This document shows, in pieces, positions 11,612-53,600 of a DNA stretch of 64,000 nucleotides; the stretch's first letter is position 1; every line of letters starts with the position of its first letter. The notes under the pieces are model-generated. The model was not told where the DNA came from and ran no database searches. It was given only the letters and a program-made list of their open reading frames with translations. The DNA comes from Watersipora subatra. Taxonomy: Eukaryota. Position numbers and translations under genes: made by a program. The stretch lies in assembly GCF_963576615.1 (NCBI RefSeq), contig NC_088716.1, positions 43,431,910 to 43,495,909 of the forward strand, in the 5' to 3' direction.

Positions 11612-11644
<33 letters not shown>

Positions 11645-12597: not shown

Positions 12598-12599
<2 letters not shown>
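11645..12599 (+). repeat. 259-bp tandem satellite, 3.7 units
   Basis: Unit heads 'tgtgatttgagcactctgg' at 11645, 11904, 12163, 12422; flanked by (TA)n on both sides. Confidence 0.9.

Positions 12600-12685
<86 letters not shown>
12599..12685. repeat. (TA)n microsatellite
   Basis: direct reading. Confidence 0.95.
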
Positions 12686-16990: not shown

Positions 16991-17092
16991 ATATTGATGT
17001 GACTTGTTTAAACCCTAAACTAAAGCAGTCTTAAACTCCACTTTTCCAAAAGGTTTTTTCTCTGTATTTTGTCTTTTCACACGTAAACAAGT

Positions 17093-19924: not shown

Positions 19925-20135
19925 CTGTAGACCATATAGTATCTCACTCTCTATATACATGTACAGTACTTATTTTCAAAGTCTACTTGAATATACGGAG
20001 AAGATTCATCTCTGATATTGGAAGCAGAGTTGCTATATGCTTCATCTCTGATGATTCCATTTACAGCATACCAGCTGTAGTAGCACAACTCCACATTGTT
20101 ACATGGATTCTGTGATGACATTCTCACTTGTTTAC
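19925..20135 (-). pseudogene. inverted decayed exon-5 copy of the lectin family
   Basis: Acceptor ctgcag|gtaaacaag kept, but in-frame stop (…YIQVDFENKYCTCI*). Confidence 0.7.
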
Positions 20136-23100
20136 CTGCAGATAAAATCTAAAATTACTTATACGTATCTATTTTCAAACTTGGTATTTTTCAGAGGTAG
20201 AATTTTTTACAATTATAATTTGCAACACTAGTTGCTTATGAGCTATTCAAAGTACTTTTTGTTATCATATTAATAAATATTTTATATAAAAACTTTTGAA
20301 AAAAAAACTATAATATTTCCAATATATGAATAAGCATTAACCATCTTTTTTGTGTTATCAATTGTATAATCAGGTGAATGACAGTTTTGAATTTTTCTGA
20401 TCTAAATTATACTTGGCTCTGTCAGATCTTTCCAAATTTTATGAAATAAAAAATTAAGTAGTAAACAAAAAATCGTATTACATAAAATAAAGGCTTTTAT
20501 TAGCACAAATCTTACTGACAGGACAAAACCAAATATCTTGTTTTAGGTTTTATTTATTTATTATTTATTATCAAGAACTGACTATGAAGTTCAATTTATC
20601 ATACAAGCAGGTATGCATAAGCTTAGCAGAAAACTGTCAGTAATCATTAAAATATTATCTCTTTTAGTGCAAATATATTTTTGTTCAATTAAAAAAGTAA
20701 TAGAAGAGAACATTTCTTACAGGCTCACTTTTATGAATTTATAAGTAGATTTAGAACTGAACTCTTCTGTTATTTGCCAAGTACTACAAAGTAAGTTAAT
20801 CTGATCTTGTTTCACTTTTATGTACTCGCTTGTAGTCTTACGAATAACTCTTTATTTACCTACCACAAGGAAGTAAAATAAAATAGATTTTATATCCATA
20901 CTTTTAAAATAGCTTTGCGGTAGAATTACAGCTAAACTTGATGTCTACAATGTCATTGAGGTAAAACATATAACAAATTATAAAGTTAGATCCAAGTTTT
21001 TTAGCTGCTCGCTAGTGCATTGTGAATAACCTGCAGGGAAGTCAAGATACAAAGCTACAATCTTTCTCATCTTTTCTGATTAAGAAATTGTGTCAACTAA
21101 AATGTTGTTTACGTTTCTATCCACTACCTATTGACGTTGAGTAACTTCAAAATATAATTTCAAACTACTCCAATTTTGCTGTTTATTCATAAAACCTGGA
21201 TTATCTCTGTTTTAACACAGACTAGTTCACTATATACTTTCCTATATATATATAGGAGTAAAAGATTCTTGTTTGTACCATTAGGAACTAAAACATTCTT
21301 TATGTAAATCAACGGCATTCTGAAACACCATTGAACATCCAAATGCCAAACACTATAAAACATTGGAAAATTGGATGTTCAACCTTTAGTTCAGTGATAA
21401 CTATAAAAGTAAAGTAATTTTCGCAAATTTTATAAGCCCTGACAGGCTAAAGCAAAAACTTTAGATGACTTTGATACACAGAACAGCCAAGCCATACATA
21501 GAGTACAAATCACACAGCTTTACAGTACAATACATAGCAGCTCCGCCATGCGACATTCATTGGCTCTCGAGTTGGCATCAGAAAGCGAAAATTTCATATA
21601 GTGTGGTATAAAAACTTCAGTAACATTCTAATGCAAACACTTCCTGGTAAGAAAACATCAAAATTGTATATACATATCATGCTTATTAAAAATTAGTAAC
21701 AAAATAGTATATTAACGCTAATAACAATAGTTAACTTATAGTTAACCTAGTAACTCTAAAGGTGTTGAAATGATAATCACCATCTTACTTATTTCTTTTG
21801 CATCATTATCAGACTTAAAACCCATGGCTAATGAATTAAATCTATATATGTAGTTATATAATTAAATATGTATAATAAATTAAAGTCCAGTGAATATTAT
21901 ATTAAACGATAAGATGCTCAATAAACTTTCACTTTCGCTTACTTTTCACAAATTTACGCCAATATCAAGCATCTGTGAAACACAAAAAATGCTAAACTGA
22001 GCAAACATCGTATCATTGTGGAAGAGATTTTGGCAAATAGCATACTGGCATTTTTGTTATTCCGACACATTCAACTCACCAACTGCCAATTCTGAATTTT
22101 GAAATAATTTTTTGTTAATATCCCATGGCACAAAAATGTTGTACGGTGGGAACAAAAAAAACATTGTGTTACACCGTAAGTTGAAAAACTGTATAACAGG
22201 AACATTTTAACTTGGAAGTGTAGGGCCTACTGTATAACAAACTCTGTATCAAACCACAAAAGCTGTACTCATCTTTCTATTATTGCTACGCCGTTAGCAT
22301 TAATAAACCAACATATTGTGACTTTTGTACAACTTTTTGCTATGGTATATTAGCAAACAATTATTGAATTGACAGAGGGACTTTTTAATTATGAAAAATA
22401 AGAGAAGGCAACTCCTATAACAAACACTTATTCCTATTTAACACATTAAAATTTTGACATATATTGGAGAATACAAAAATTATGAAAAAAATTATACTTT
22501 GAACTTTTTTCAGCTAAACTACAATATAACTTCATATTGACTGATGTATGTTTTGTTTAACTTATAGAAAAATTTTCATCAAAATTTGTTCCCTCTCTGC
22601 TGCATGTATAGCAATTTATTTCGAACTAGATTTATCCTGATACTAAATATACTATGACCATCTGTGCATGGGATTTGGCATGGGGGCTATGGTGGCTGGA
22701 CGCCCTTCTTAACACCTTAGATTGTTTTTATGTGACCTGTTCAACTGACATACTGATTATATGCCAGTGTACAAACCCTCGAACCACTACTACTCTGTGG
22801 TTCGGTGGTAAGTGCACCAGCATATATTGGGCACTATTTCAAGTTTATGTAGAGGTTAGCATTATCAAAAATTGAAGTGTTGTGAGTTGTTTCCTATCTA
22901 ACCTAAGTCTTTATCAAAAATAAATTTTTGATAAAGTTGTAAAGTTGTAAACATTCTACATCACCAACTATTTTTCTGTTAAGGAATTTCTAAAATTTCA
23001 TTTACTAATCTATTTTTGTATGGTCATATCTAAAAGATATTTCATGCAATAATGATTTTTCATAATCTAAAATATACAACCAAGAAGAAAAATTATCCTA

Positions 23101-24709
23101 TCGGGATTTCAGAGATATGTTTATACTAGTTACACTTAAAGAATGTTATTGTATAAAGTAGAGATGTCCCGATTCTAAATTCACCAACCAATTCAGATAC
23201 TGATCCGATATACCAATTCTTATTAAAAAATAATCCGATTCAGATACCGATTTAGATCTTTTGTGTTGCATAGATAATTTTTCATTTTATTATAGAAAAT
23301 ATAAATAATAATTTATTTGTCTGTTTGTATTGATATATTGTTGTTGTCAACAAAAACAGCAACAACATTAGCCGCACCTGTAAAGGAAAAGCATTTTTCA
23401 ATTTTTTAAGAAAAGATTGGCCGATACCGATTTAGATACCAAAATCGGGGCAACTCCAGTATATAGATACTGGCTGAGTGAGAATTATAAAGAAACTATT
23501 TTGTCAGTTTACTCTAAGAAAATAAAGAAAATAAGGTATTTTGCATATGACTATGAATGTCTTTTAACACTAAAAAAGTTATGATTTGTGATCACTGATA
23601 ATGTTTTAGAGAGAATACACATCTAGTTTTCTTCGTGTCAAATTGCACAAGATAACAAGCTGCTGTTCAGACTAGAGGAGTTGTCCTCTTATCATCATAA
23701 ATTGTAATAACTAAGCTACCTGTACATATAGAAGCTATAAGAGCTATAGGTAAGTAGTTATTTATTTCAATACAAAAAAACTCCAAAAACTAATATGATT
23801 GATGCTGGTACAATAATTCTAAAAATAATCAAGTAATCAGGTAATGTGGTAATCTTTAATATTTTAAGTATTATCAATGTTATAGGCAATGTAACCGCAA
23901 AATCAGAATCAGTCAACTCAGAAATGAATTTTTATGGCCAATTTATTGATTCTTTACTACTTGAATTTATTGAACTTAACTATTACTTGAAAATTTGTGA
24001 TTTTTGCAGTCTACTGCAACAATAGACTATAGTGAATATTAATAATTTGTTTACTCAAGCTCTCATGTTTTGGTACAGCAAAATTTATAGTTTTTTGAGT
24101 ATTTTGATGGTTACAAAACACGCGCAATTATATAATTCAAAATACTTGCTTTTATTTACTCAATTTGCACTCCTTAATTATTTTAGAATTAAATAAGTAA
24201 GTTTAGAGGTTTTTCATTGTACAACACAAAAGCAAACAAAATAATGCTTCAATATTTTTACAATTTACTTTTAGTAGAAATAGAAAAAGTCTGTATTGTT
24301 CTTTTATGATCTCTAAGTTCATGTTAGTCACATCTGCAAAATTATAACTGGCCCAGTAAGCGGAGAATGGACCCAGCTTAGATTGGATCGACTCAGAAAT
24401 TGCTTCAAAACTGACCCAGAAGGAAGCAGAGTCTAAACCCCACATGAATTATTTAAAGACGAAGATAATGCTAAAAGAATAAGATTCATTCGCGTTTTCT
24501 TGTTAACACGTGTCTTGAACAGTACGCAAGCAGAGCAAATACATTTATTTTAAACTGGAAACATACTGCGTTGTTTCAGTAAACTTAAGTATGGAGCTAG
24601 TGAGAGAGCCTCGCAGGCATCCTTCACAATATATATATATCACCTATCAATAAACTAGAATACTCCATAGCTGTAGAAAGAACTAACTATAAATTGAGTA
24701 AAAACTTAC

Positions 24710-24905
24710 CATCTCTCTGTAGGCCATTATAGTATCTCACTCCCTTTATACAATAGTTATATTCCAGGTCGATTTGAATATAAGGAGAATAATCATCTCT
24801 GGTAGAAGAAAGGTTGCTGTCTGCTTCATCATTGATGATTCCATCAACAGCGTGCCAGCTGTGGTAGCATGACTCCGAATTACATGGATTCTGTAATGAC
24901 ATCCT
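24710..24905 (-). pseudogene. orphan exon-5 copy of the lectin family with intact frame and donor, but no conserved acceptor and no neighbouring exons
   Basis: Encodes [69 protein letters not shown] then gtaagt; upstream replaced by (CA)n/(CATG)n. Confidence 0.6.
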
Positions 24906-25200
24906 CACTTGCTTAATTGAAGTTTAAATGTAAAATTACGCACACGTACCCATACACACATACATACGCACATACACACAAACCCACATACACACATACA
25001 TACACACACATACACACATCTACACATACCTACACGCACACACGCACACACGCACACACACTCACACACGCACACACGCACGCACACACATTACATGCAT
25101 ACATGCATACATGAATGCATGAATACATGTATGCATACACGCATACACGCATGCATGCATGCATGCATGCATGCATGTATGCATGCATACATGTTGCGTT
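24905..25200. repeat. compound (CA)n / (CATA)n / (CATG)n microsatellite
   Basis: direct reading. Confidence 0.9.
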
Positions 25201-26650: not shown

Positions 26651-27907
26651 ATGTGTAGCAATATGAATGTTGCATTGATGCTGATGCTGGGTGCCGTTGT
26701 GTTAGACGCGTCTCACAATGCCAACACTATTGGTGATGTGTATAAAGCACCTTCTGGAGATGGATTCAGATGTGTGGGTAGGTACATTTTCCTATGAGTA
26801 GAATGTTCGCTCTGTATATTGTTAGTTAAAAGTTCTCTGTTCATACAACTTAGCCTCAAGTTTCAATTTGCAGATATAAACGAGTGTCAGTCCCCAGATG
26901 ACTACAGATGTCCAGCTAGGTCAACCTGTGTCAACACTGTAGGAGGTTACGACTGCAAGTGTATGAATGGATATACTATGGTTGATGGCAGATGTGTTCG
27001 TAAGTATACATGCTTTATAAGCACACATTGATTTAGTTTTCTGCCGACAATCTTCAGGGCTCAATTTTTTCATGGTGATTACGATTTTGATGGAGTGTTA
27101 CTTGCAGGTGATGCGAGAAATGGTGCTTCTAGCAGTGTTAACAGTCCATGCTGGAACAACAATGGAGGCTGTGGAAATCAACACTGTAAAGACACCGCAT
27201 GGGGAGTTGATTGCTCATGTGACCGCTTGGCATCATATGGTTCTACTGTTGCACGAGGTAGGTGCCATTGTATATGAAAGTGTGTACATGAATGACTGAA
27301 GACTTACAGAGCTGTGATTTGTTTGAGTTCATAATCGCAAAAAGTTTCCAGTTTTACAAGTTTTCAACTCACATTTTGCGTTTGGTTACAGGAAAGCAAG
27401 TAAGAATGTCATCACAGTATCCATGTAATTCGGAGTCGTGCTACCACAGCTGGTTTGCTGTTGATGGAATCATCAGTGATGAGGCTTACAGCAACCTTGC
27501 TTCTACCAGGGAGGAATATTCTCCTTATATTCAAATAGACCTGGAAGAAAGCTACTGTATAAAGGGAGTGAGATACTATAATGGCCTACAGAGAGATAGT
27601 AAGTTGATTTGTTACTTGTTACAAGCTTCTGCTATATTTATACAGTATCATAATCATGTTGATAAGTGTTCTTCTCTTTACAGCTGTGACTAGCATGAAT
27701 CTGCTGGTGAATGTCGGAGAGACGGAGTATGCCGCTAGCCGCTTTCCAGGTTCATCTGCTCAATGTATCTATTACCGAGGTCTTTCCTTTGAACAGAGAG
27801 TATTGACATGTACAAGTAGAGTATATGGAAGATATGTGAGAATCACCGATGTGGCAGCATCCAGTTCTCTAGCAGCTCGGGAGATAGTTGTGCTCAATTA
27901 TGAGTAG
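26651..27907 (+). CDS. lectin gene A: secreted signal peptide-cbEGF-EGF-F-type-lectin-like protein, ~278 aa. CDS join(26651..26777,26874..26999,27108..27257,27392..27598,27684..27907)
   Basis: All introns GT..AG and phase 1; exon frames agree with track ORFs 26588..26797, 26819.., 27095.., 27292.., 27656..27907; motifs DINECQSPDDYRCPARSTCVNTVGGYDCKCMNGY, SPCWNNNGGCGNQHC...DCSCD, AVDGI...YIQIDL...GRYVRITDV...REIVVLNYE. Confidence 0.8.
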
Positions 27908-28139: not shown

Positions 28140-28430
28140 CTTAGTTATGAGAGACTAATTTAAGTTGATTATAAAAACTCTTACTTGGTTGTAAGAGGCT
28201 AGACTTGGCTGTAAGACACTTGACGTGGCTGTAAGACACTTGACGTGGCTGTAAGACACTTGACGTGGCTGTAAGACACTTGACGTGGCTGTAAGACACT
28301 TGACGTGGCTGTAAGACACTTGACGTGGCTGTAAGATGTTTGACGTGGCTGTAAGACACTTGACTTGGCTATAAGACACTTGACTTGGCTGTAAGATGTT
28401 TGACTTGAGATATTTACCTCAATTATAAAA
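28140..28430. repeat. 20-bp minisatellite (gacacttgacgtggctgtaa)n, ~12 units
   Basis: Positional equivalent of the 18700-19200 array in the neighbouring duplication unit, with a diverged unit. Confidence 0.9.
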
Positions 28431-29282
28431 GACTAGACTTGGTTAGCTGAGTAAAAATATTGTTTGTGTTTCATGCTCTCACATTTTGTTACAAAACTGC
28501 TGGTTGTTTAATGATCTCGTTGGTTCTAGTCCCGATGCAGTTTTACAGGTTAAAATATTTCTTACTCATTACAGAATTAGTATTCCTTCATGTCTTTTAA
28601 ACTGAATAAATAATCTCAGTAGTTTTTTTATTAGTCAATACGGAAACAGACAAAAATACTGCTTTAATTCGTCTCTTATCATCTATTTTAAGGAAGCGAC
28701 AAAAAAGTTTCAATTATTTTTTATGCTCCAAGAGTTCATGCTAGTGTGGTGGTGGACAATGACCAGACCCAAGACCAATGAAGCTCATTAGGATTAGACA
28801 ACCATACCAAGGCCAAAAGACTCACATTGCCCCTTCGACCTGTTAAGGACTTGGAAAAGCATGCCAGACAGAGGCCTGGAGTGGCCAAGCCTGCCTTAAA
28901 CCCAGCTGGAGGTACAGACAGTTGGTTGTTGGCTGGTAAGGACAATCAGGCTTACTAGCAAGCCGCAGATGATAGGCTAACCAATTGTTTAATTGGCATG
29001 CTAATAATTGTGAAATACAAGGAGCCCATCAAGAGGAGGTTGGAAGAGCATAAAAAAAATAATTTTATGCAGTTGTCTGCTGAGCATACATTCACTGTGA
29101 TTATTTATAAATTTGCACATACATATGTATTGCCTGAGATACTCATAGTGGTTTGAATTTTTGTGGAGCAGTAAAAGGTCACAGTGGATCCTTTACACTA
29201 GTCTCAGCTACAAGATATGGATCAACTATCAATAACCTATAATATTCCATAACTGTAGCAAGAATTAACTGTAGATTAAGTA

Positions 29283-29512
29283 CCAGTTTACCATCTCTCT
29301 GTAGACCATTATATTATCTCACTCTCTATATGCAGTAGTTATTTTCAAGGTCTATTTGAATATACAGAGAATATTCTTTTTTAGTATTGGAAGCAGGGTT
29401 GCTATATGCTTCATAACTGATGATTCCATTAACAGCATACCAGCTGTGGTAGCACAACTCCACATTTTTACATGGATTCTGTGATGACATTCTCGCTTGT
29501 TTACCTGCAGAA
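29283..29512 (-). pseudogene. inverted decayed exon-5 copy of the lectin family
   Basis: GKQARMSSQNPCKNVELCYHSWYAVNGI... with in-frame stops (YCI*). Confidence 0.7.
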
Positions 29513-31150: not shown

Positions 31151-32386
31151 ATGTTGGGTAAAATGAAAGTTTTACTGATGCTGTGTGCCATTGCATTGGT
31201 AAAATCTCGGGATGCTGACACTATTGGTGATGTATATAAGACACCTTCTGGAGATGGTTTCAGATGTGTGGGTAGGTACATTTTCCTATGAGTACAACAG
31301 GTGGTTTGCTACAAATATTTTGTTCTTATGCCCTTAGACTTATTTTTAACTTTTAGACATAAACGAGTGTCAGTCCCCAGATGACTACAGATGTCCAGCT
31401 AGGTCAACCTGTGTCAACACTGTAGGAGGTTACAACTGCAAGTGTATGAATGGATATACAATGGCTGATGGCAGATGTGTTCGTAAGTGCGCCGAGTTTT
31501 TCTATTTTCCTTTTTTTGATTTTACCATCGATATGTGTTATTCATCAGTCTTATTCAATTTATTCAATGATGGCTGCAATTTTTGAGTTTTATTCGCAGG
31601 TGATGTGGCAAATTATAGTGCTGGCAGTATTAACAGTCCGTGCTGGAACAACAATGGAGGCTGTGGAAATCGACACTGTAAAGACACTGCATGGAGAGTC
31701 GATTGCTCATGTGACCGCTTGACATCGTATGGCTCTACTGTTGCACGAGGTAGGTGCCATTGTATGTAAAAACGCGTACATGAACAACTGAAGACTCACA
31801 GAGCTGTGATTTGCTCATAACCGCGAAAAAATTTTAAGACGTTTTAACTCGCATTTTGCATTTGTTTACAGGAAAGCAAGTAAGAATGTCATCACAGTAT
31901 TCATGTAGATCGGAGTCATGCTACCACAGCTGGTACGCTGTTGATGGAATCATCAGTGATAAAGCAGACAGCAACCTTGCTTCTACCAGAAAAGAATATT
32001 CTCCTTATATTCAAATCAACCTGGAGGATAACTACTGTATAAAGGGAGTGAGATACTATAATGGTCTACAGAAAGATGGTGGGTTTATGTGTTACTTGTT
32101 ACTAGCGTCTGCTATAATTATACAGCAACATTATCATGTTGATAAGTGTTTTTCTTTAACAGCTGTGACTAGCATGAACCTGCTGGTGAATGTCGGCGAA
32201 ACGGAGTATGACGCTAGCAGCTCACCAGGTTCATCTGCTCAATGTGTCTACTACCGAGGTCCTTCCTTTGAACAGATATTGCTGACATGTAGAAGTAGGG
32301 TATATGGAAGATATGTGAGAATCACTGATGTAGCGGCATCCAACTCCCTGTCTGCTCGTGAGATAGTCGTGCTCAACTATGAGTAG
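31151..32386 (+). CDS. lectin gene B. CDS join(31151..31271,31357..31482,31600..31749,31872..32078,32163..32386)
   Basis: Same exon sizes and phases as gene A (126, 150, 207, 224 bp for exons 3-6); intron 5 is 84 bp with no stop, which explains the track ORF 31856..32386 reading through it. Confidence 0.8.
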
Positions 32387-33404: not shown

Positions 33405-33600
33405 ACCATGTGTACTACTGTATAAAAGGAATGAGATACTATAGTTGTCTACAGAGAGATGGTAAGCTGGTACATAACCTATACTAGTGATTCAGTCGTA
33501 AATGTCGGAGAGACGAAATAAGAGGCCGGCAGCCCTCCTGGTTCCTTTGCTCGCGTTTCCACTGCAGAAGTGCTGCCTTTGAGTGAGCATAACGTATTGA
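33405..33600 (+). pseudogene. collapsed fragment of lectin exons 5-6 with the intron largely deleted
   Basis: ...IKGMRYYSCLQRDG + gtaagctgg... + ...VNVGETK...; stops present. Confidence 0.5.
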
Positions 33601-35121: not shown

Positions 35122-36902
35122 CTACACATAGACAAGCACAAGAATCTCACGAGCTGCCAGAGAGTAGGATGCTGCCACATCAGTGATCCTAACATAGCTA
35201 CCATATACCCTGCTAGTACAGCTCAGTAATCTCTGTTCAAAGGCAGCACCTCTGTAGTAGACACATTGAGCGGATGAGTCAGGATGGCTGCCAGCCTCCT
35301 CTTCAGTTTCTCCAACATTCACGAGCAGGTTAACTCTATAGACAGCTGCAAACAAGTATAAGCAATGTTTATTTAATACACATCTTGACATGATACTTCA
35401 ATAGACTTGACATGATACTTCAATAGATTGTTGTCCAGTTTTGATTCTATTTTATACCTCGCCCAATGCCATTGTAGTATTTCACTCCTTTAACGCAGTA
35501 GCTCTCTTCGAGATCAATCTGGAGATATGGAGAGTACTCTACTAGTGTCGAGGCCAAGTTGCCACCGGCTTCGGTATCAATCACTCCATCAACAGCATAT
35601 GAGCCGTGATAACACAACTCCGGTGTGCAAGGAAACTGTGAGGACATCTTAACTCGTTTCCCTGAATTAGAAGTTTTTAATATCAGCAACTTTTTTAATG
35701 GGTTCAATTTATTACAATGCATATCAGCACATTGCAACACTGTTTTAGCTAAGTCATGCTTTTTAACTCTTAGAGTTTGTGAATCAATACCCTTAAACGT
35801 AAAGTACAGCACAAACCTAACCTTGGGCAATATGCGAGTCATATGATGTCAAGCGATCACAAGAGCAGTCAACTCCCGTATCCGTGTCTTCACAGTGTTT
35901 ATTACCACATCCACCATTGTTTCCAGCTAAACATGAATTTTCACCTAAAATATACAGAAAGAGTATTTTGTATTACAAGCTGGAATAGTAACATTGCTTG
36001 CACGCCAAATTTTCTAGTGAGCCCTGGATGCTAGATTCAAGTATAATTATAGGTCAGTCCGCAATATTATGAGAAGACAACTCCATTGAATACTTACTAA
36101 TACAAGTGCCATCCACCATTGTATAGCCATCCATGCACTTGCAGTTGTAACCTCCTACAGTGTTGACACAGGTAGACCTACTTGGGCAGCTGTTTCCATA
36201 AGGAGTCAGGCATTCGTTGATATCTGTCAATACACAAGACAAGCAAACATCCAATGTATTACATTCTAAGAAAAAACTGAAAAACTTAAATTGATATTAA
36301 AGTGATATGGTGAAATCAGGACTGCTAAAGTGAATGAACAGCAACAAATATGACACTTGTTAGTTCTACTTAACTACTTTGTATACAAAATGATAATCTT
36401 TTAAGTCACTTTTCAAGCGAGTTTCTAGAACCGTTGGTTTAGTATTTACCACAGGAAACAGAAACCCATTCTTTTAATTTTCGGGACTTGGGTGACTGCC
36501 TCAAAAAAACATCGTTCAAATCGGAGTAGGTCACAGCTCTTTGCGCAAAGTAACTCGAGTATGGTTCACTTACCCATGCTAGACTAGCGGTATATTCTAA
36601 AGGACCAGAATGCTTTCTCCTCACACATATCAAGCTAGCTAGCAGCTATCAAGCTATCAAGCTAGAGTTTCCTGCAGCAAACAGACTTGTTACTTACCTA
36701 CACACTGGGATGTTGGACCCGGAGCACGAGGTGGCTCTGCAATTCTAGTTTCTTCTCTTGTAGGACGCGGAGCACGAGGTGGCTCTGCAATTCTAGTTTC
36801 TTTTCTTGTAGGACGTGGAGCAAAAGGTGGCTCAGTCATTCTCCTAGTTTCTTCTCTGTAGTGCTCAGCAAAGCATCCAGCAAAACCAAACAGCAATAGC
36901 AT
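35122..36902 (-). CDS. lectin gene D (minus strand), with an N-terminal Pro/Arg/Thr-rich tandem repeat. CDS complement join(36902..36698,36223..36098,35944..35822,35661..35458,35345..35122)
   Basis: Phase-1 introns throughout; frames agree with track ORFs 36690..36914(-), 36054..36254(-), 35447..35842(-), 35122..35391(-); exon 2 carries 3 x 48-bp repeat encoding (E/K)ETRIAEPPRAPRPTR. Confidence 0.75.
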
Positions 36903-37019: not shown

Positions 37020-37188
37020 CTTTAACAGCGCTGCCATATTGTATGTCACTTCACTTCGTAGTAATTGAGAGCTGGGGTAAATATTCACTGCACACCTAAA
37101 GGAATGGTAGAACTTCTTATAATACACTTACAATCCTCAGTATGTAAGGATGGTTGCTCTTACCAACTCTATTAGCGCCTTATATACA
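37020..37188 (-). promoter_or_regulatory. putative TATA (ctgtatataagg, minus, 37181-37188) and 5' exon of gene D, with donor aaag|gtaaga at 37020/37019
   Basis: Unrelated to the A/B promoter block; contains atggcagcgctgttaaag, which would splice in frame onto the exon-2 ATG. Confidence 0.3.
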
Positions 37189-39687: not shown

Positions 39688-40971
39688 ATGTTGAAAGGCA
39701 GGGAAGTGAGTTTAGCAGTTATGCTGGCAATAACTGTTTTGGTGAGCTCCCAAGAAACGGACACTGACGGTCATGTCTATCAGCCACCCTCTGGAGCTGG
39801 TTTTCGATGCGTTGGTAAGTTTCAAAACCATACGCTATAGGAAAGTATATGTAGCTGGCAAAATGGCTGCGCTGATGAAAGTTATTTTTTGTAGACATAA
39901 ACGAGTGTCAGTCCCCAGATGATTACAGATGTCCAGCTAGGTCAACCTGTGTCAACACTGTAGGAGGCTACGACTGCAAGTGTATAAATGGATATACTAT
40001 GGTTGATGGCAGCTGTGTTCGTGAGTGGCTTTCAGTTTTTCAAGCTCTCAGTATTTGTAGTTTACGTTGATATTTGTTGCTGGTGTTCTAAAGTGTAGTT
40101 AAGTTAATGTAAGTATTGGTTTTATACTACTTATTACTAATTTTATTTCAAACAATTGTTTTAAAAATTATACCATACCAAGAATCCTAAAGTTTTGCAA
40201 ATTGATGTCACTGGGTAAACTTGTAGCTCGAGCTGGTAATCTTGATAATATTGGTCCATGTTGGAACAACAATGGCGGTTGTGGAAACAGGAAATGCAGA
40301 GACACAACGTATGGAGTTGACTGCTCATGCGATGGGTTCGCATCATATGGATCCACTATTGCTCGAGGTCAGAAGCTTATCTTGCTCTTTCATTAATCTC
40401 GGATGTTAAATATCAAAGTAGAACATCTAAATATTTTTTTTCTCTGCAGGTAAGCAAGTAAGAATGTCATCACAGTATCCATGCAATTCGGAGTCGTGCT
40501 ACCACAGCTGGTACGCTGTTGATGGAATCATCAGTGATGACGCCTACAGCAACCTTGCTTCTACTAGAGAAGAATACTCTCCTTATATTCAAATAGACCT
40601 GGAAGATAGCTACTGTATAAAGGGAGTGAGATACTATAATGGCCTACAGAGAGATGGTGAGTTGATAATTAATTTGATAATTAATCTGGGCTACTATTTG
40701 CCAATGATATGAAGTACCATAGGCATGCTTATAAACGCTCTTTACAGCTGTGACTAGCATGAACCTGCTAGTGAATGTTGGTGAGACGGAGTATGACGCT
40801 AGCAGCTCACCAGGTTCATCTGCTCAATGTGTCTACTACCGAGGTCCTTCCTTTGAACAGAGGGTATTGACCTGTACAAATGGAGCCTATGGTAGATATG
40901 TGAGAATCACTGATGTGGCAGCATCTAATTCTATGGCAGCCCGTGAAATAGTCGTGCTCAACTATGAGTAA
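39688..40971 (+). CDS. lectin gene C. CDS join(39688..39814,39895..40020,40227..40367,40450..40656,40748..40971)
   Basis: Frames verified against track ORFs 39619.., 40202.., 40464.., 40750..40971; exon 4 donor is the weaker gtcaga. Confidence 0.78.
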
Positions 40972-41698: not shown

Positions 41699-44600
41699 TC
41701 ACTGGTTGATGAGTCTGCGTATTTCTCCTAAAAATGTTCAATTAAACTGATGTTGATATTTAAATATTCTAACTGTTTAGAAGCTAAGTCCAATAATAGG
41801 AATTAGGAAGTATTCAAATGTATATTACTCACTTTGAGACTTGAATTGATAGAACAAAAATAGTAGTCATATGTACAAAATGTATTTCAGTTTTTTACAA
41901 AGCATTGTCATCATTGTTCAGTGTCTGCCTAGCTATAATAGTGATTAATATGTAACAATGAAAAAATCCGTATTGCAGAAGATTTGATCCTGCAACTTTC
42001 ATTCACAAAGCAACAAGCTAACCCATCGAGCTACATGGGTTGCAATAAATTTGTTGACCGATATGAAACATTGTTTGGGTTAAAATGCGCATAGCGACTC
42101 TGCGTTACGCGCAATGTCAATAAAGCTTGCTCTCACGCCTCTTCTTAGTAAGCTTAGCAATACGGATACTAACTTACTCAAATTATCCAAGGGCAACTAC
42201 ATAACCTGCCGCTGTTTATAAGCTATTTATAACACCCATGCAACGCCGAGCATTAGGCTAGTATTAGAATAGAATACAGTTGCAGTTAATGGCCAACATA
42301 AAATAAATCAATAAGAAATTTAAAGTGTGTTTGCGGTTACTAACCATTTGCATAACATTTGTGTTTAAAGTTTTCAAAAATTTTTGTAATCATAAAAAAG
42401 AATGAGCCAAACATACATGTAAGGAAGATGAAAATATTAATATATGATTAATTAATACTAATCTAATACTAACTAATAACCTAATATAACTAAATATTAG
42501 ATATATAATAATGAGCCATTACGAGGGGAAGCTTTGATATCAATGGAGGCGTTTTGAAACAGCTTGTATCAATAGGAAGACCATGTCATACATGAGTATG
42601 TCAACAGTATTAAGTAATTAAGTGAAAGTGAATATCGATATTGCAAGCCTAGAAAAAGAATGCTTTGAAGTTACATACCAGCCAAGTCGTTTAGCCTGTA
42701 ATACTTCACTGCTCGGACTAGTTGTTGGGGTGAAGCATTGGCTCCCTGATTTTGCTTCCAAATCTCTAGTGCTTCAAGACATCGCTCTCTTCCTGATGAG
42801 AACTCATCTTCAATATTGCTCAGTTCTGCGAAAGAACACATACAAGTATAGCTAAAGCACAGAGCTCAATCAGTAGAGCTTAGCAGGATGTCAAAGGAAT
42901 GAGGTCAAGGTTCCTACCTTATTCCTAATAAGGTTTATATGACTAGGTTCAAGGTTGAGACACTTTTATTTGCATAGAAAGTTTTATCTACTTAGCTTGA
43001 TAAACTAAACTACATCTTGGCAAACCAAGAGAATATCAAGGTTACTTCTAAAAACTTAATAACCCTTAAGGAAGGTTTGCTTGTAGTTTGGAGGGTTAAA
43101 TTGCTTTTTGCTGCTTATTTTCCTTGTACATGTATATAACAGCACAATGCCTGTGTACTTGTTGTACAGTTGATTATTATTACTATTATTATTGTTGTTT
43201 TTGTTTGTACACTTTATTCATAGAGAATTTTATAATAGATCTCAGTCAACATCTATGACAGAATACATTGTTGACTTGCTTATCAACAAGTACCCATAAA
43301 GCGATAGTGTAGCAAAACCCAAGTGTGCCAGTACCGAAGCACTATCAAGGGCTGACAAGTAGATCATATTTCCATAGAGCGCTTATAGTAGAGTGATGGT
43401 CGTGCGATGTCTAATTTCAAGGCATATGTCTGCATATAAAGCAACAGGAAAGAAGGACCTATTGGCATGCACAAGTGTGACCCGGTTGGTCGCTAAGACC
43501 CTTTTCATGGCACAAAGATGGTGCATCGCACGGGTGTTTCACTCTCAAACAGCAACACTGAATCACTAAAAAATTCCAGTGACAAGCTGTTTCCGTGGTG
43601 TCATAGCAACGCCATATGGGGTGTCTCGCTACCCTATGGCATTTCTAACTGTATGGCATTTCATATCTTCACATGTCATACAATAGTACGAGTCTCAGTA
43701 ACACGTATTTTTATGTATGCGATTATTTCCCGAAAGGTAATTCAGGTCTGCCATATGTAGGCTTGAATTAATGAATGCTATTGGCAGCTGTTTAAAAGCA
43801 GCAGCAAAGGTTTAGTAGCTCTACATTAGTACACAGGCATGACTAGTACACAGGCATAACAACACTTGCAGTTGACATACCCTGGTCTGTGACACGCAGA
43901 TGTTGAGCTATATCTTTCCACCTGGCTAGTCCTGAATGATGTTGTGCTATTTTCACAAAGATCTGCCGCAGCAGGTTTTCTGTAACAGTAAAAGAATTCA
44001 ATAATTAGTATAAAAGATTTGAAAATTTTATAGTGAATTAATTATAATATTTTTCTCAAGCTTGAAAAATATTTTTTGAATTGTAGATAGAAGCAACTCA
44101 GAGTATATTACAAATAACAATTTCATGAAAACTTTTAGAATTGGTTTATGACGCTCAAATACATTAATTTGTTCAAACCATAGTATTCTATTGCTTTTGT
44201 AAGCAAATGGTTTCTAAAAATCCAAAAAGATTCCATTACTGCCCACTCATAGTTTTTTTCTGAAGGTCTGCTTCAGTTCACAAAAGAACCTGCATGTTAC
44301 TAACAACTACAATCAAACACTTCCAGATAATGTAAGCAAAAAACTACATAATTACAGGTATTGTTTAGACAAAATAATTGTTATATATATTTAGCTAAAC
44401 CGATCAATAATTGTAAAAAATTGAATCTTTACAAAGGCATCAAGCAAACTGCAGCGCTCACCTTTATATAGTTCTGCTCGAAGCTCGTTAAAGTCATATT
44501 CTTTGTCTCTCACATCTTCAACTAAATCAAGTCGGCCAACAGCTCGCAGCGCATCACAAAGAACCTTGACCTTATCCATGCTTCTTGGAATCCTCTTTAT

Positions 44601-47600: not shown

Positions 47601-50600
47601 AGCTCTATGCTTCAAGAGATAACAAGTTGGTAAAAAAGAGGCGCTTTAATCCACCTATAGGTAAGAATTCACAAGTTATAGCCAGCTTTTTTTTAATCTG
47701 TGTATTTTTATGGCACTGAACTCGATCTAAGCTAACGTGTTTTCAATGGGTTTATTAATGTGTCTATGGATATGTCTATGAATGAAATAAAATAAAGTTA
47801 GGTTTCAATTTTTTATCTTAGCTGATGTGTAGCTGATGCGTAGCTGATGAATAGTCTAATATAAAACACAGACAATCTTCACACAACTTGGCCCAAAATA
47901 GAATATGATGCTCTGTGTTATGGTTCTCAATTCTCATAACCAAATATTAATTTATCTTAAAATTATCATTAAATATACATGCTACTATATGTGCTTGATT
48001 AAAATCCTAGCAAATCTATAACTCCATTTTTACTTTTACTGGTCTATTTAATTCGTAATTCAAGTATTAAATAAATAGTGATGCAAAATTCCATTTTAAG
48101 AATTAGAATCAATGTTATTACGATATGAAGTACAGATGTTTTTAGTAGAAGTTAAAAGGTCAACTATTTAAGTTATTAGGGTCTTTCAAAGGTAAACATA
48201 GCTTCCTTGTTTCATAGACAATAAAAGTTACAAAAAGGATGCCGGTATTTGCAATTATTATATTACTATTTTATAACAATCACGAAACATTTTACCATGC
48301 AACAATTCAAGGTAATGCATACAGGTCAGAAAGCAGAGAACATACCCCGTCACTCTCACTGTTCACGTGGTTCCTCATGATAGACTGAATGCGTGTTTTT
48401 TTCACATTGAGGTGGCTGGCAAGCATTTTCCATTCATCTCCCAAGTCTGAAGACAACTGCTTGAGAAGGGCTTCATCTATTGGTCCTGCATTTAGAGAAA
48501 AACGTTTTTGTCAGAAGTAAGTTCCCAAATAAATTTTCATCATGTACAACTTCAAAAGTGCTGCATATTTCAATAGTTTAAAAGTTTTCCTGCTGCAGAT
48601 AGTTGAAGTCCTGGTTGTTGTCAGACTATTATACCAAAAGTTACAGAAAAAGTAAAGCAATTGCTAAAGTTATAGAAGAAGTAAAACAATTGCTAAGGTT
48701 ACAGAAGAGATAAAACACTTGCAAAGGCTACAGAATAAGTGAAATAATTGCTAAGGTTACAGAAGAAGTAAAACAATTGCTATGGTTACAGAAGAAGTAA
48801 AACAATTGCTAAGGTTACAGAAGAGGTATAACAATTTCTGAAGTTCAAAAGAGGTAAGACGATTGCTGCCATTCAAAAGAGGTAAGACAATTGCCAAAGT
48901 TACAGAAGAGGTAAGACAACTGCTAAATCTTGTACGGTCTTGTACTCTAGTAAAGGGTTTAACCTTCTATTTCAAAATAAATATCTGCAGTTAGAGCATT
49001 GCTGCTGACAAACCTTCTGGAATGAGATTAAGTTTTGCTTTTTTCAAAGGTTTGGGAGCTTCTTGCTCTGGCTTGGGAAGACTAATAAGTAGCTCTGCTA
49101 ACTTGATGCTATCCCAAACTTCTTCTGAGCCTATCGGCTTTTTCTCTTTTTTCTTATCTGACTCATCATAAATATCTTTTGTAACCATCCCTGCAAAAAT
49201 TCAATTAACTGTTGTTAGGATCACAGATAATAGCGAAGATCTTATATACAATAGCATAAAAGTACTTTACCATTGTTTTGAGAATCTTCAGCAATTCAAC
49301 ATAAAAAAAAGATAAGGTATTTAATTTGAGCAGAACACTCCAAGGTAAGCACATTAATATATTTCATATACACACTTGCATCAATATCATTTCATATACA
49401 CACTTGCGTCAATATTGTTTCATACACACACTTGCATCAATATCATTTAATATACACACTTGCATCAATATCATTTAATATACACACTTGCATCAGTGCC
49501 ATCTCTAATACACACGGGTGTCAGTATTATCTCATATACACACTGGTATCACTATCCTTTCATATGCACACTTGCATCAATATCATTTCATATACACACT
49601 TGCGTCAATATCATTTCATACACACACTTGCATCAATATCATTTCATATACACACTTGCATCAGTGCCATCTCTAATACACACGGGTGTCAGTATTATCT
49701 CATATACACACTGGTATCACTATCCTTTCATATGCACACTTGCATCAATATCATTTCATATACACACTTGCGTCAATATCATTTCATACACACACTTGCA
49801 TCAATATCATTTTATATACACACTTGCATCAATATCATTTCATATACACACTTGCATCAGTGCCATCTCTAATACACACGGATGTCAGTATTATCTCATA
49901 TACACACTGGCATCATTATCCTTTTATATGCACATTTGCATCAATATCATTTCATATACACACTTGCATCAGTGTCATCTCTGATACACACGGTGTCAGT
50001 ATCATCTCATGTACACATTGGTATCATTATTATCTCATATACACATTTGCATACAGATCATGACCTATAAAAGTTTGCATCGATTTTCCTCTGTTTAAGA
50101 ATAGCACCAAATAAGGCTGACAATAGTATAATAAAGTATTTTTATTCAATGATTGTTCAAAGCTCAACTGCTGTTATTCTGAACACAAGGCAACACTGTT
50201 GTTTTATGGTTAAGAGTATTAAGCATTCAACACAAGCAAATCATATCCTTTAGTAAGTCACGTATTCAGGTAAGGAATGTTTCCCACTACATTCACATAA
50301 ACAAGAGAGTGAGAAGCTGCTGAAAAACCTTATTATTATTGTCTAACAAGATCATATACTGCACTCCAAACTGAAGTATTTGTTCTTTTGATCACTGCAT
50401 GCACAAAGTTTATAAAATTAATCTGATAGCGTGTAACCAGGTATGCATAATAATAAGTGTGCTGAACTATTTCGATAGACTATAAACAGAGTGTTTGAAA
50501 ATAAAAACAGCATAACTAAATGCAGTGATACTACACGCCTTAATCTAATACACATTGTAGTTACCTGTGAGTTCTGTCGTAGCCATTATGGATAACAATT

Positions 50601-53600
50601 ATAGTGTACTAATAGGTGACTAACATGCCTAGTTTGTAAACCGATGTTAAAAGTGCTCGTGCCAAAGGTGTTTGTGAAGGAATGTTATAGCTATATTACT
50701 AATATATGTTAGTTTACCTTTCTGCCTTTTTTGCCGCCTTTGCTCTAAATTTAAATAGAAAAAATTAGATCGAACAAAAAAGCAAATTGCGGTACAAGGT
50801 CATCTATTTGCTTCTCAGCACTCAAACATAGATAATATTAATATATAATATGCTAATAGCCTCAACAAATAATGGAATCAAGACTCATAATCTGAAGTAT
50901 TGGATCAATAAGCGGGCTTGAGCCCACACTCTTACCTTCCGTAAAGAATTGAGCAAAACCCCTATAAGAGCTCAATGTCTTCTGTGCATATTTGTCAATT
51001 TCAGCGATGTAAAGGTTGATTTGGCACTTCAGCTGCGAGTTAAATGAAGTTATCAGGTCAACTTCTTCATCAGGTTGCAGGTTTCCTCTAAATCTCACTT
51101 CTAACTTCTGTCCTTCTTTAACAAAGATCTCTTGCGATATCTTGTTGCAGTCTGTGTAGCCTGTAAAAATAGAACAATGAACTTTTTTATAAGAATTGCA
51201 ATATGCTTTAACAAAAAACTATTTCAGTTAAACCTTTGGCCAGGCTTGCAGCTTTCTTTACTTCCAAATACATGAGACTGGTAAACTTTGCTGTTGAGAG
51301 AATCAAAATTGAGTACTAAAGTTATGATACAACTTATTTTATATCATTTTATACATTATACTTTATCTCATGCATAATTATAATACATATGGAAAATAAT
51401 ATCATCTGCTATACTACACTAATTATATAGTGTATTATATACTTGTAATATATACTTATATATTATATATTATACTTGTAATATATACTTATATATTATA
51501 CTTGTAATATATACTTATATATTATATATTATACTTGTAATATATACTTATACATTATACTTGTAATATATAAGTATATATTATACTTGTAATATATAAG
51601 TATATATATATTATATATTATACTTGTAATATATACTTATACATTATACTTGTAATATATAAGTATATATTATACTTGTAATATATAAGTATATATATAT
51701 TATATATTATACTTGTAGTATATACTTATATATTATATATTATACTTGTAATATATATTTATATATTATATATTATACTTGTAATATATACTTATATATT
51801 ATATACTATACTTGTAATACATACTTATATATTATATACTATACTTGTAATATATACTTATATATTATATATTATACTGGTAATATATACTTATATATTA
51901 TATACTATACTTGTAATATATACTTATATATTATATACTATACTTGTAATATATACTTATATTTTATATATTATACTTGTAAAGCAAAATTCAATCATCT
52001 TGTTTTATTGTGTTCGGCTTTTGAAACTTTTAACAACACCTAACTAGTAAGAGAATGTTTTTATAGGTTTTTTAATCAACCCAATATATATTAGGTACTG
52101 AAATTAGGTAAAGTTGCTTTCTAAAATCCTCAAACGCATGATTTAGCTAGTTTGAGTTATATTCAAAAGAGGTTTCTCTAAATTATTTTGTTACTGTAAC
52201 TAGTCATTTATGAATTAATCTATTTTAATTTAAAACTAAAATAGCCTCTCTATAGTCTTACCTTCTTCATCCAATTTCCTTATTGTCTTGTCTACCTTCT
52301 GGCTCGGAACACAGACTAATGCTATGTCTGTAGGATCATCAGCTTTCTGTCGCACTATAAACTGGGCCAGCCTTCGATGAATGTAGTCGTATAGCCTGTC
52401 AGCCATAGCTTCAACTTGGGACGTTGATAGACTAGCTTTGGTTCTGAGCAGCCAGTACCTTTAAATGCATTATCGTCCAGTGTGAGCAAACAGTCTGACT
52501 GAGGGACTAGCCTCCTGCATCCATTTTATCGCTTGTTAATCTTCTTATTCCATTACCCTTCATATCTTATTTCCCTTTATGATTTTTTGTTGTCAATATT
52601 AGTTATTATATAGATATATTACTTTATTAATAAAAAATTCATTTTAAACAGAATTGTGTTCTAAATTTTGCCATAGAAGAATCTTAAACAAAAAATTGGC
52701 AACAGTTGGCCAATAAAATCAAATAAATAGTTTGACGTCTAGCATTTAAAACAAAACTCTTTACTCCATTAAGAGAAACAATATTAGGTTGAAGATTGCT
52801 GTAGAAGCTAGCAAGGATATTTTCAAAATATTTATTAGAGGTTATATGCAAGTTGTTCATATAGCGAAAGTTGAAATGAGTTAAAAACCTGTAAAAAACC
52901 TGTTATTTTACAATTATTATCATATATGGCTGACCCGTTCATGATTCTTATTGCTTCATCATTTTTCTACATGTTTATTTTCATTTTTTGTTATTCTTTA
53001 GTTTTGAGTTTTCAAATTATCATTTAAATAAAATAGCTTAATAATTATTTTAATTAACTTTACGGCTACATGAGAATGCAACAGAGGTAATAACGAATTA
53101 GAATAATACATGTAAGAGCTATACTAAAACGAGCCGAAATAAACTAGCCTGAGAACCATTCAGTCTGTTATTGATACAACAACATATACAGGCGATTCAG
53201 TCATTTTATAACAAAATGTTGAATTTGCAGCTATTTTAATGCACATCTGTTTACTGTTTTAGATACATGTAAGTAAGGTATAATTTATCATATAAAATTC
53301 ATAGCTTTAGTAACAACTTATACGCACATGCCCCTATGTTAAAGCCTTCCACATGTATGACTGAAGCCTTGGAAAAAATGAAAAAAACTACCTATTTATT
53401 GTTGGTATGCCCTTGGATGAGTTTCTCCTTTACTGTAAACTTACTTGTGTGGAATAATATCGGTGGTGACAGATATCAGATCTCCTTTTTTGTTCTGAGG
53501 AGAAAACTCCATCTGGTTAGTAATGTACCAGTTGCCATCACTATCAAGTGTTAGCAAGTGCAATGCATCTTCTTCTTCTTCTACAGATGAAAGAAATTGT

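What the first reader, a model, noticed from the sequence alone, without database searches (positions are those of the whole stretch)
36698..36902. Copy D acquired a Pro/Arg/Thr-rich tandem-repeat insert between the signal peptide and the first EGF
Exon 2 of gene D contains three 48-bp DNA repeats (36700-36860) encoding ...EETRRMTEPPFAPRPTRKETRIAEPPRAPRPTREETRIAEPPRAPGPTSQ. These are absent from A, B and C, where the equivalent exon reads GDVYK(A/T)PSGDGFRCV. A repeat-number-variable, mucin-like or proline-rich linker in one paralogue suggests fast-evolving neofunctionalisation, for example a tether or cleavage region.
Basis: seen in the sequence. Interest (0 to 1): 0.55.

Follow-up and report, generated by a model that had tools for sequence, protein, structure and literature searches.

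The report
In-frame tandem repeat in paralogue D
One of four neighbouring genes for a small secreted EGF/lectin-like protein has tripled a 16-codon stretch just after its signal peptide, giving it a floppy proline/arginine-rich N-terminal tail; this is a real but ordinary way for secreted proteins to change.

Summary
Window 36698-36902 (minus strand) is an exon with canonical splice sites. It encodes a signal peptide, three head-to-tail units of 51, 48 and 48 bp (TRF period 48, 3.1 copies, score 212), then Cys-Val, and it joins in phase 1 to a calcium-binding EGF exon.

Gene D is intact: six exons, all GT-AG, with AATAAA after the stop. It is under purifying selection (dN/dS 0.16-0.18 against A-C; dS about 1.2).

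Copies A-C carry a 22-residue peptide at this position. Its tail, SGDGFRCV, matches the junction between tandem EGF modules, so the short form is ancestral.

The units differ by only 7-15%, so the expansion is a later gain in the D lineage, in at least two steps. Removing two units returns the ancestral length.

The tail is 21% Pro, 20% Arg, 16% Glu and 12.5% Thr, and is predicted disordered. Ser+Thr is only 14%, so it is not mucin-like. The units evolve almost neutrally (pN/pS 0.6-0.9).

The window is rich in minisatellites (15 arrays, 9.5% of bases).

Best reading: an in-frame coding minisatellite that makes a flexible N-terminal extension. Neofunctionalisation, copy-number polymorphism, cleavage and glycosylation are untested. 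No relatives of the family were found in any database searched. Interest is low.

The parts
37020..37037 (-). Putative coding end of D exon 1: ATG GCA GCG CTG TTA AAG (MAALLK), donor AAG|gtaaga, in frame with exon 2
   Evidence: No ATG lies between the TATATAA at about 37186 and 37037. Use of this exon is inferred; there is no transcript evidence.
36698..36902 (-). D exon 2 (205 nt, ends in phase 1): signal peptide, repeat array, then Gln-Cys-Val
   Evidence: Acceptor tttttaaag|ATG and donor TAG|gtaagt. Translation. GC 0.49 against 0.35-0.37 in the flanking introns.
36867..36902 (-). Signal-peptide core MLLLFGFAGCFA; likely cleavage after CFA
   Evidence: Best 9-residue Kyte-Doolittle hydropathy 2.3-2.4 (A-C: 2.8-3.1). 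The cleavage site is inferred from the small residues at positions -3 and -1; no SignalP run was possible.
36804..36854 (-). Repeat unit 1 (51 nt): EETRRMTEPPFAPRPTR
   Evidence: 7/48 mismatches plus one extra codon relative to unit 2.
36756..36803 (-). Repeat unit 2 (48 nt): KETRIAEPPRAPRPTR
36708..36755 (-). Repeat unit 3 (48 nt): EETRIAEPPRAPGPTS
   Evidence: 3/45 mismatches relative to unit 2.
36698..36707 (-). Exon-2 tail CAG TGT GTA G: Gln-Cys-Val plus the first base of Asp. The Cys-Val and the phase-1 donor are shared with A-C.
   Evidence: Alignments.
36098..36223 (-). D exon 3: calcium-binding EGF (DINEC...GTCI)
   Evidence: Pfam EGF_CA 40.5 bits against a cut-off of 27; splice sites.
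35822..35944 (-). D exon 4: second EGF-like module with five Cys
35458..35661 (-). D exon 5: first half of the C-terminal discoidin-like domain
35122..35345 (-). D exon 6: second half of the C-terminal domain plus the stop codon; AATAAA 112 nt downstream
26651..26777 (+). Equivalent exon of copy A (no repeat): MCSNMNVALMLMLGAVVLDASHNANTIGDVYKAPSGDGFRCV
31151..31271 (+). Equivalent exon of copy B (no repeat): MLGKMKVLLMLCAIALVKSRDADTIGDVYKTPSGDGFRCV
39688..39814 (+). Equivalent exon of copy C (no repeat): MLKGREVSLAVMLAITVLVSSQETDTDGHVYQPPSGAGFRCV

Best explanation
The feature is an in-frame coding minisatellite. A 16-codon segment that encodes the peptide just after the signal peptide was tandemly triplicated inside exon 2 of paralogue D. 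D is one of four clustered genes for small secreted proteins built as signal peptide, calcium-binding EGF, EGF and a discoidin-like domain.

The triplication took at least two steps, by unequal exchange or replication slippage, in a genome region prone to minisatellites. It happened after D split from the A-C lineage.

The translated product is a tail of about 53 residues rich in Pro, Arg, Glu and Thr. It has mixed charge and is predicted disordered. It replaces the short vestigial EGF tail (GDGFRC) of A-C and joins the first EGF through the conserved Cys-Val.

I infer that it acts through length and composition, as a flexible, proline-stiffened N-terminal arm or spacer, and not through a specific sequence motif.

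Shown: the repeat, the reading frame, the splice structure, the intactness of D and its selective constraint, the polarity and relative timing of the gain, and the composition.
Inferred: translation and secretion in vivo, disorder, and the spacer role.
For: - Repeat: TRF period 48, 3.1 copies, score 212. The unit is unique in the window.
- Reading frame: units of 17, 16 and 16 codons, and the only indel is one whole codon.
- Fit to the gene: the exon begins with a hydrophobic signal peptide, ends ...Cys-Val|G in phase 1 as in A-C, and joins to DINEC.
- Exon skipping: skipping exon 2 would remove the signal peptide and shift the frame, because it is 205 nt long.
- Gene integrity: all D splice sites are GT-AG, there is a poly(A) signal, and a TATA-like box lies upstream.
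- Selection: D against A, B and C gives dN/dS 0.16-0.18 and dS 1.15-1.24.
- Composition: exon-like GC of 0.49 against 0.35-0.37 in the flanks.
- Timing: unit divergence is 6.7% (units 2-3) and 14.6% (units 1-2), far below dS between D and A-C.
- Polarity: the A-C tail aligns to the GDGxxC-DI(D/N)EC junctions of EGF arrays (Pfam cEGF hint).
- Length: the 56-residue mature exon-2 peptide, less two units (33 residues), leaves 23 against 22 in A-C.
- Tail properties: Pro 21%, charged residues 37.5%, and the Uversky plot places it on the disordered side. No Pfam or PDB match.
- Context: the window carries 15 minisatellite arrays.
This suggests a host-held gene model with exactly this structure.
Against: - There is no transcript, protein or orthologue evidence. 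The family has no detectable relatives in 5.8 billion proteins, 1.84 billion cluster representatives, the PDB or metagenome contigs.
- Between-unit pN/pS of 0.6-0.9 (3-8 differences per comparison) fits a functionless passenger as well as a composition-only function.
- Homology of the unit to the ancestral peptide could not be shown statistically, so 'triplication of the native segment' rests on length parity and position.
- Concerted evolution among the units could make them look younger than they are.
- The single-sequence AlphaFold model was poor throughout (pLDDT 44.8), so it says nothing reliable about disorder.
Confidence: 0.62

Rival explanations
1. Propeptide or multi-peptide precursor. 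The units are cut by a proprotein convertase at the RPTR sites on the unit boundaries. This either removes the tail before secretion or releases short Pro/Arg-rich peptides.
For: RxxR occurs at RPTR|KE and RPTR|EE, exactly at the unit 1/2 and 2/3 boundaries, with one more at RAPR|PT, and the array follows the signal peptide directly. Human basic salivary proline-rich proteins have tandem repeats, and their precursors are processed by proprotein convertases (PMC3235478, which cites Chan & Bennick 2001). The PRPT motif also occurs in drosocin, GKPRPYSPRPTSHPRPIRV (bioRxiv 10.1101/2022.12.11.519952).
Against: Only the minimal RxxR is present, not R-x-[K/R]-R. In a peptide that is 20% Arg such motifs are expected by chance. 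Unit 3 lacks the site (GPTS). Released peptides would have a net charge of about +1, unlike strongly cationic Pro-rich antimicrobial peptides. The conserved Cys sits after the last unit, so nothing marks a pro/mature boundary.
Confidence: 0.12
2. Mucin-like or densely O-glycosylated stalk, comparable to the Pro/Thr-rich domain of the long isoform of mouse MFG-E8.
For: There are seven Thr. The three that follow Pro directly (the P-T of PRPTR/PGPTS) are in a context I recall as favourable for GalNAc transferases. MFG-E8-L carries P/T-rich repeats, O-glycosylated on Thr, between EGF2 and the first discoidin domain (PMC4939324).
Against: Ser+Thr is 14% with a single Ser, well below mucin domains. 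Arg and Glu together exceed Thr nearly threefold. The position is N-terminal rather than between EGF and the lectin domain.
Confidence: 0.1
3. Not translated. D is a decaying or mis-modelled copy and the array lies in an intron, a UTR or a dead exon.
For: There is no expression evidence. The window holds at least five pseudogene fragments of the family with stop codons. The units evolve nearly neutrally. The antisense frame over the array is also open.
Against: D has an intact 293-299 codon ORF across six exons with canonical splice sites and phase-1 junctions identical to A-C. dN/dS is 0.16-0.18, and all 17 mature Cys are conserved. No A-C-type exon 2 exists elsewhere upstream of D's EGF exon. 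The only signal peptide available to D is in this exon.
Confidence: 0.08
4. Assembly artefact: a collapsed or spuriously duplicated sequence.
For: None specific, beyond the general fact that tandem repeats are prone to assembly error.
Against: The units differ by 7-15%, including one codon indel, and the whole array of about 150 bp is shorter than a typical sequencing read. Copy number in other haplotypes could still differ.
Confidence: 0.02

Closest known systems
Intragenic (coding) minisatellites in secreted and cell-surface proteins, such as yeast FLO1 and other adhesins (review PMC3899988)
   Same: Head-to-tail units that are a multiple of three bases, inside an exon of a secreted protein. 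They arise and change by slippage or unequal recombination and alter length without breaking the frame.
   Different: Only three units are present, no copy-number variation has been demonstrated, and the array lies at the extreme N-terminus of a small soluble protein rather than in a wall-spanning stalk.
Human basic salivary proline-rich proteins PRB1-4 (PMC3235478)
   Same: Tandem Pro-rich units of 20-21 residues in a clustered gene family. The same review lists a paper on convertase processing of a PRP precursor.
   Different: PRPs consist almost entirely of repeats (3.5-15 copies), are rich in Gly and Gln, and have no folded domains. Here the repeat is a short appendage on an EGF/discoidin-like protein. 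No sequence similarity was found.
Pro/Thr-rich domain of the long isoform of mouse MFG-E8 (lactadherin) (PMC4939324)
   Same: A secreted protein with two EGF modules and discoidin-type domain(s) that carries an extra Pro-rich repeat segment, present in one form and absent from another.
   Different: In MFG-E8 the segment is an alternatively spliced exon between EGF2 and discoidin-1 and is O-glycosylated. Here it is an in-exon triplication ahead of EGF1, Thr-poor and Arg/Glu-rich. Membership of the MFG-E8/EDIL3 family is not established: there is no RGD, only one C-terminal domain, and that domain scores below the Pfam threshold.
Inter-module junction of tandem calcium-binding EGF arrays (fibrillin/NELL-type proteins)
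   Same: The short A-C peptide ...SGDGFRCV-DINEC aligns with GDGxxC-DI(D/N)EC junctions. The family's exon 2 is therefore a remnant of an upstream EGF module.
   Different: D keeps only the Cys-Val of that remnant. The rest has been overwritten by the repeat unit.

Membership tests
Coding tandem repeat (intragenic minisatellite) | At least two head-to-tail copies of a unit of 10 bp or more, beyond chance | tested here: met
   TRF period 48, 3.1 copies, 87% matches, score 212.
Coding tandem repeat (intragenic minisatellite) | Unit length a multiple of three, and the array lies within an open reading frame bounded by valid splice sites | tested here: met
   Units of 51, 48 and 48 nt; the only indel is one codon; the ORF runs from the signal peptide to the phase-1 donor.
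Coding tandem repeat (intragenic minisatellite) | Copy number varies between alleles or species | not testable with these tools
   No population data. No related DNA or protein was found.
Mucin-like domain | High Ser+Thr content (roughly a quarter or more of residues) together with Pro, in tandem repeats | tested here: not met
   Ser+Thr 14% (7 Thr, 1 Ser of 56) and Pro 21%. The threshold is from general knowledge.
Mucin-like domain | Dense O-glycosylation | not testable with these tools
   No glycosylation predictor or data were available.
Proprotein-convertase-processed propeptide | R-x-[K/R]-R consensus at the pro/mature boundary | tested here: not met
   Only minimal RxxR motifs (RPTR twice, RAPR once); no R-x-K/R-R.
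Proprotein-convertase-processed propeptide | Cleavage demonstrated | not testable with these tools
   Needs protein chemistry.
MFG-E8 / EDIL3 (EGF plus discoidin) family | EGF module(s) after a signal peptide | tested here: met
   Pfam EGF_CA 40.5 bits (D) and 40.0 bits (A), cut-off 27.
MFG-E8 / EDIL3 (EGF plus discoidin) family | F5/8 type C (discoidin) domains, normally two | tested here: inconclusive
   There is a single C-terminal domain. For the isolated domain of D and of C, F5_F8_type_C scores 15.6 and 22.4 bits (cut-off 28.2) and F5_F8_type_C_2 scores 20.9 and 27.7 bits (cut-off 27.8). The four-copy profile has no credible PDB match: the only hit is an unrelated TPR-repeat protein at E=0.018.
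MFG-E8 / EDIL3 (EGF plus discoidin) family | RGD integrin-binding motif in an EGF module | tested here: not met
   No RGD in any of the four proteins (sequences).
Proline-rich antimicrobial peptide precursor (apidaecin/drosocin type) | Strongly cationic Pro/Arg-rich mature peptides with PRP motifs, flanked by processing sites | tested here: not met
   PRP and PRPT are present, but each unit has a net charge of about +1 (4 Arg against 3 Glu) and no dibasic or RxKR flanks. No activity test was possible.
Secretory signal peptide | N-terminal hydrophobic core followed by small residues at -3 and -1 | tested here: met
   MLLLFGFAGCFA has a best 9-residue hydropathy of 2.3-2.4, with Cys and Ala at -3 and -1. 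This is heuristic only; SignalP was not run.

The most novel reading that the evidence does not exclude
The array is a newly evolved multi-copy propeptide. Convertase cleavage at the RPTR unit boundaries would release short Pro/Arg-rich peptides carrying PRPT, the motif around the glycosylated Thr of drosocin, from a lectin-like carrier. On this reading an immune-type paralogue in a birth-and-death gene cluster has gained an effector-peptide function.
Probability: 0.05. Interest if true: 0.6.

Novelty: new member of a known kind. Interest (0 to 1): 0.2.

Why it matters
It is a clean small example of protein change by in-frame minisatellite expansion. The polarity is clear: the ancestral peptide was a vestigial EGF tail. 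The relative timing is clear: the array was built in at least two steps, after the paralogue split. The rest of the gene remains under purifying selection.

If the array varies in copy number or is processed, it would be a handle on the function of a clustered secreted-protein family that appears lineage-restricted and has no detectable relatives in public protein collections. As it stands, it does not challenge current knowledge.

Tried and rejected
1. Unit derived from the ancestral exon-2 peptide. By eye, QET/EET and QPPS/EPPR looked homologous. Shuffle tests at DNA and protein level were not significant (p 0.05-0.97). Only alignments that include the shared Cys-Val tail scored. I kept this only as a length and position argument.
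2. Family identification. The search for homologous proteins with D found only an EGF hit to Elysia NELL2. The profile of the C-terminal domain found nothing. phmmer of B against 1.84 billion representatives returned only multi-EGF arrays, with every best-scoring stretch inside residues 19-133. The profile search of the PDB gave only a spurious TPR hit. Exact look-ups of B and D found nothing.
3. Related DNA that could show copy-number variants. An exact 23-mer from the repeat and a protein-pattern scan of metagenome contigs both returned nothing.
4. Structure. Single-sequence AlphaFold of D gave pLDDT 44.8, which is unusable, so no fold search was run.
5. Organism. The LINE reverse-transcriptase ORF matches a bryozoan (Watersipora subatra, 79%) and fish elements. 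This does not identify the source.
6. An 18-nt match of the unit at window 375-392 is a chance hit.
7. Pfam and PDB searches with the 56-residue tail found nothing.

Full report
**What is at the coordinates.** The window is AT-rich eukaryotic DNA (GC about 0.27-0.42 in 2-kb windows, mostly 0.30-0.37). Read on the minus strand, 36902-36698 is an exon. A pyrimidine-rich acceptor (tttttaaag|ATG) precedes it and a consensus donor (TAG|gtaagt) follows it.

It translates as MLLLFGFAGCFA-EHYR-EETRRMTEPPFAPRPTR-KETRIAEPPRAPRPTR-EETRIAEPPRAPGPTS-QCV, plus one base.

Tandem Repeats Finder reports one array at 36711-36861: period 48, 3.1 copies, 87% matches, score 212. My parse gives units of 51, 48 and 48 nt at 36804-36854, 36756-36803 and 36708-36755. 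Unit 1 differs from unit 2 by 7/48 substitutions and exactly one extra codon. Units 2 and 3 differ by 3/45.

The unit occurs nowhere else in the window.

**The gene it belongs to.** Self-comparison and six-frame translation show a cluster of paralogues. I built spliced models for four intact copies:
- A: 26651-27907, plus strand.
- B: 31151-32386, plus strand.
- C: 39688-40971, plus strand.
- D: 37037-35122, minus strand.

Each has a signal peptide with a short N-terminal peptide, a calcium-binding EGF (Pfam EGF_CA about 40 bits, cut-off 27), a second EGF-like module with five Cys, and a two-exon C-terminal domain of about 140 residues. That domain resembles F5/8 type C (discoidin) domains only weakly. 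Its best score is F5_F8_type_C_2 at 27.7 bits, against a cut-off of 27.8.

All internal exon junctions are phase 1 and all splice sites are GT-AG. D has AATAAA 112 nt after its stop and a TATATAA about 150 nt upstream of a short 5' exon.

That 5' exon (37020-37037) carries an in-frame ATG that would add MAALLK to the signal peptide. No other ATG lies between the TATA-like box and it. Whichever ATG is used, the array lies inside the ORF.

tblastn also finds at least five family fragments with stop codons, at 17085-17612, 19936-20145, 24654-24914, 29272-29505 and 33416-33554. None has a D-type exon 2, and no A-C-type exon 2 lies upstream of D's EGF exon.

**Is D a live gene?** From the DINEC motif to the stop, Nei-Gojobori estimates give dN/dS of 0.16-0.18 and dS of 1.15-1.24 for D against A, B and C. 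A, B and C are younger relative to each other (dS 0.26-0.45, dN/dS 0.19-0.28). All 17 Cys of the mature protein are conserved in the four copies. D is therefore an old paralogue under purifying selection, not a decaying copy.

Exon 2 also has exon-like GC (0.49 against 0.35-0.37 in the flanks). It cannot be skipped: it is 205 nt long and holds the only signal peptide.

One indirect point. The structure-prediction tool admits only proteins 'found exact in this window'. It accepted the spliced D protein starting at the 36902 ATG, repeat included, and the representatives-search tool, which has the same gate, accepted B. I read this as a hint that a host-held gene model with exactly this exon 2 exists. 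I cannot verify that, and I give it little weight.

**Gain in D or loss in A-C?** Two lines of evidence point to a gain.
1. In A-C the peptide ends ...SGDGFRCV|DINEC. BLASTP against a multi-EGF protein aligns this repeatedly with the junction GDGxxC-DI(D/N)EC between tandem calcium-binding EGF modules. Pfam also gives a sub-threshold cEGF match there. The short form is therefore a remnant of an upstream EGF and is ancestral. D retains only its Cys-Val.
2. The units differ by 6.7% and 14.6%, far less than the synonymous divergence between D and A-C. The duplications therefore post-date that split and came in at least two steps. The caveat is that concerted evolution could make the units look younger.

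The mature exon-2 peptide of D is 56 residues. Less two units (33 residues) it is 23, against 22 in A-C. The simplest history is an internal triplication of D's own, already diverged, N-terminal segment, not an insertion of foreign DNA. I could not show residual homology between the unit and the A-C peptide.

**What the tail is like.**
- Composition: of 56 residues, 12 are Pro, 11 Arg, 9 Glu, 7 Thr and 5 Ala, with a net charge of +3.
- Ser+Thr is 14%. The Uversky charge-hydropathy plot places the peptide on the disordered side.
- It matches nothing in Pfam or the PDB.
- Minimal RxxR motifs fall at the unit boundaries (RPTR|KE and RPTR|EE) and once inside a unit (RAPR|PT). With 20% Arg this is unremarkable.
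- Between units, pN/pS is 0.6-0.9 on 3-8 differences per comparison, against 0.16-0.18 for the folded domains. The tail's sequence is therefore under little constraint.

**Context.** The window has 15 distinct tandem arrays with TRF score of 200 or more, periods 2-259 bp, covering 9.5% of its bases. The four genes' coding exons cover 5.3%. One array landing in an exon is therefore not surprising. What selection has filtered for is that this one stayed in frame.

**Interpretation.** The best-supported account is an in-frame coding minisatellite that turned a short N-terminal peptide into a flexible tail of about 53 residues, rich in proline and of mixed charge, on a secreted EGF/discoidin-like protein. 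Any effect probably comes from length and composition, as a spacer or arm.

Rivals:
- Convertase-processed propeptide. Possible, but only minimal sites are present.
- Mucin-like O-glycosylated stalk. The composition argues against it.
- Untranslated or dead exon. Gene integrity and dN/dS argue against it.
- Assembly artefact. The divergence between units argues against it.

**Comparison with known systems.** It behaves like the intragenic minisatellites of secreted and surface proteins reviewed in PMC3899988, and like the tandem Pro-rich repeats of the salivary PRB genes (PMC3235478). The nearest architectural analogue is the Pro/Thr-rich, O-glycosylated segment of the long isoform of mouse MFG-E8 (PMC4939324). 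That segment is an alternative exon between EGF2 and the first discoidin domain. Membership of the MFG-E8/EDIL3 family fails on RGD and on domain number, and is inconclusive on the discoidin domain.

**Limits.** No relatives of the family were found, so orthology, polymorphism and expression could not be examined. Single-sequence AlphaFold was uninformative. The source organism is unidentified. A LINE reverse-transcriptase ORF in the window is closest, among named hits, to a bryozoan element.

**Verdict.** The feature is real, correctly located and correctly read as a D-specific coding gain. It is an ordinary kind of event, it is not mucin-like, and there is no evidence yet for neofunctionalisation.

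Noticed in passing
window 17085-17612 (+), 19936-20145 (-), 24654-24914 (-), 29272-29505 (-), 33416-33554 (+): Fragments of the same gene family, mostly the first exon of the C-terminal domain, with in-frame stop codons. With the four intact copies on both strands, this looks like a birth-and-death tandem cluster.
   Followed up: partly
window 39863-39881 (+), inside intron 2 of copy C, compared with 37020-37037 (-): ATGGCTGCGCTGATGAAAG in C's intron, just upstream of its EGF exon, resembles D's putative exon 1, ATGGCAGCGCTGTTAAAG (MAALMK against MAALLK). It is out of frame with C's next exon. It could be chance or a relic of an alternative first exon.
   Followed up: partly
all four copies; Cys at the end of exon 2 (D: 36702-36704): Each mature protein has 17 Cys. 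The second EGF has only five, and the extra Cys at the end of exon 2 is invariant. This suggests an unusual disulfide between the N-terminal peptide and EGF2, or a free or intermolecular Cys.
   Followed up: no
C-terminal domain of A-D (for example D 35122-35661): The domain of about 140 residues has no detectable homologue in 5.8 billion proteins, no credible match in the PDB and no relative in metagenome contigs. It scores just below Pfam thresholds for F5/8 type C. It may be a lineage-restricted, divergent discoidin-like domain.
   Followed up: partly
window 12806-14776 (+), with a 259-bp tandem array at 11644-12603: An open 657-codon reverse-transcriptase ORF of a LINE. The best named hits are a bryozoan (Watersipora subatra, 79%) and teleost fishes (about 60%). 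It is preceded by 3.7 copies of a 259-bp repeat that are 99% identical.
   Followed up: partly
window 42674-42865 (-): An exon-sized ORF that encodes part of a death domain (Pfam PF00531, 29.5 bits, cut-off 22.6). It belongs to a neighbouring, unrelated gene.
   Followed up: no
window 3593-4531, 16427-17000, 18752-19167, 28186-28396, 48637-50052, 51423-51982, 56240-56428, 59309-59806, 61827-62133: Unusually many minisatellite arrays, with periods of 15-196 bp. Arrays of TRF score 200 or more cover 9.5% of the window.
   Followed up: partly
window 36633-36665 (-), intron 2 of D: A simple (AGCT)n / AGCTATCA repeat lies immediately downstream of the repeat-bearing exon. D's intron 2 is 474 nt, against 80-96 nt in A-C.
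   Followed up: no
D exon 4 (35822-35944) against A and B exon 4: D lacks about 9 residues of the linker between the two EGF modules (TCISENSC against RCVRDVANYSAGSINSPC). D therefore has a longer N-terminal tail but a shorter inter-EGF linker than its paralogues.
   Followed up: no
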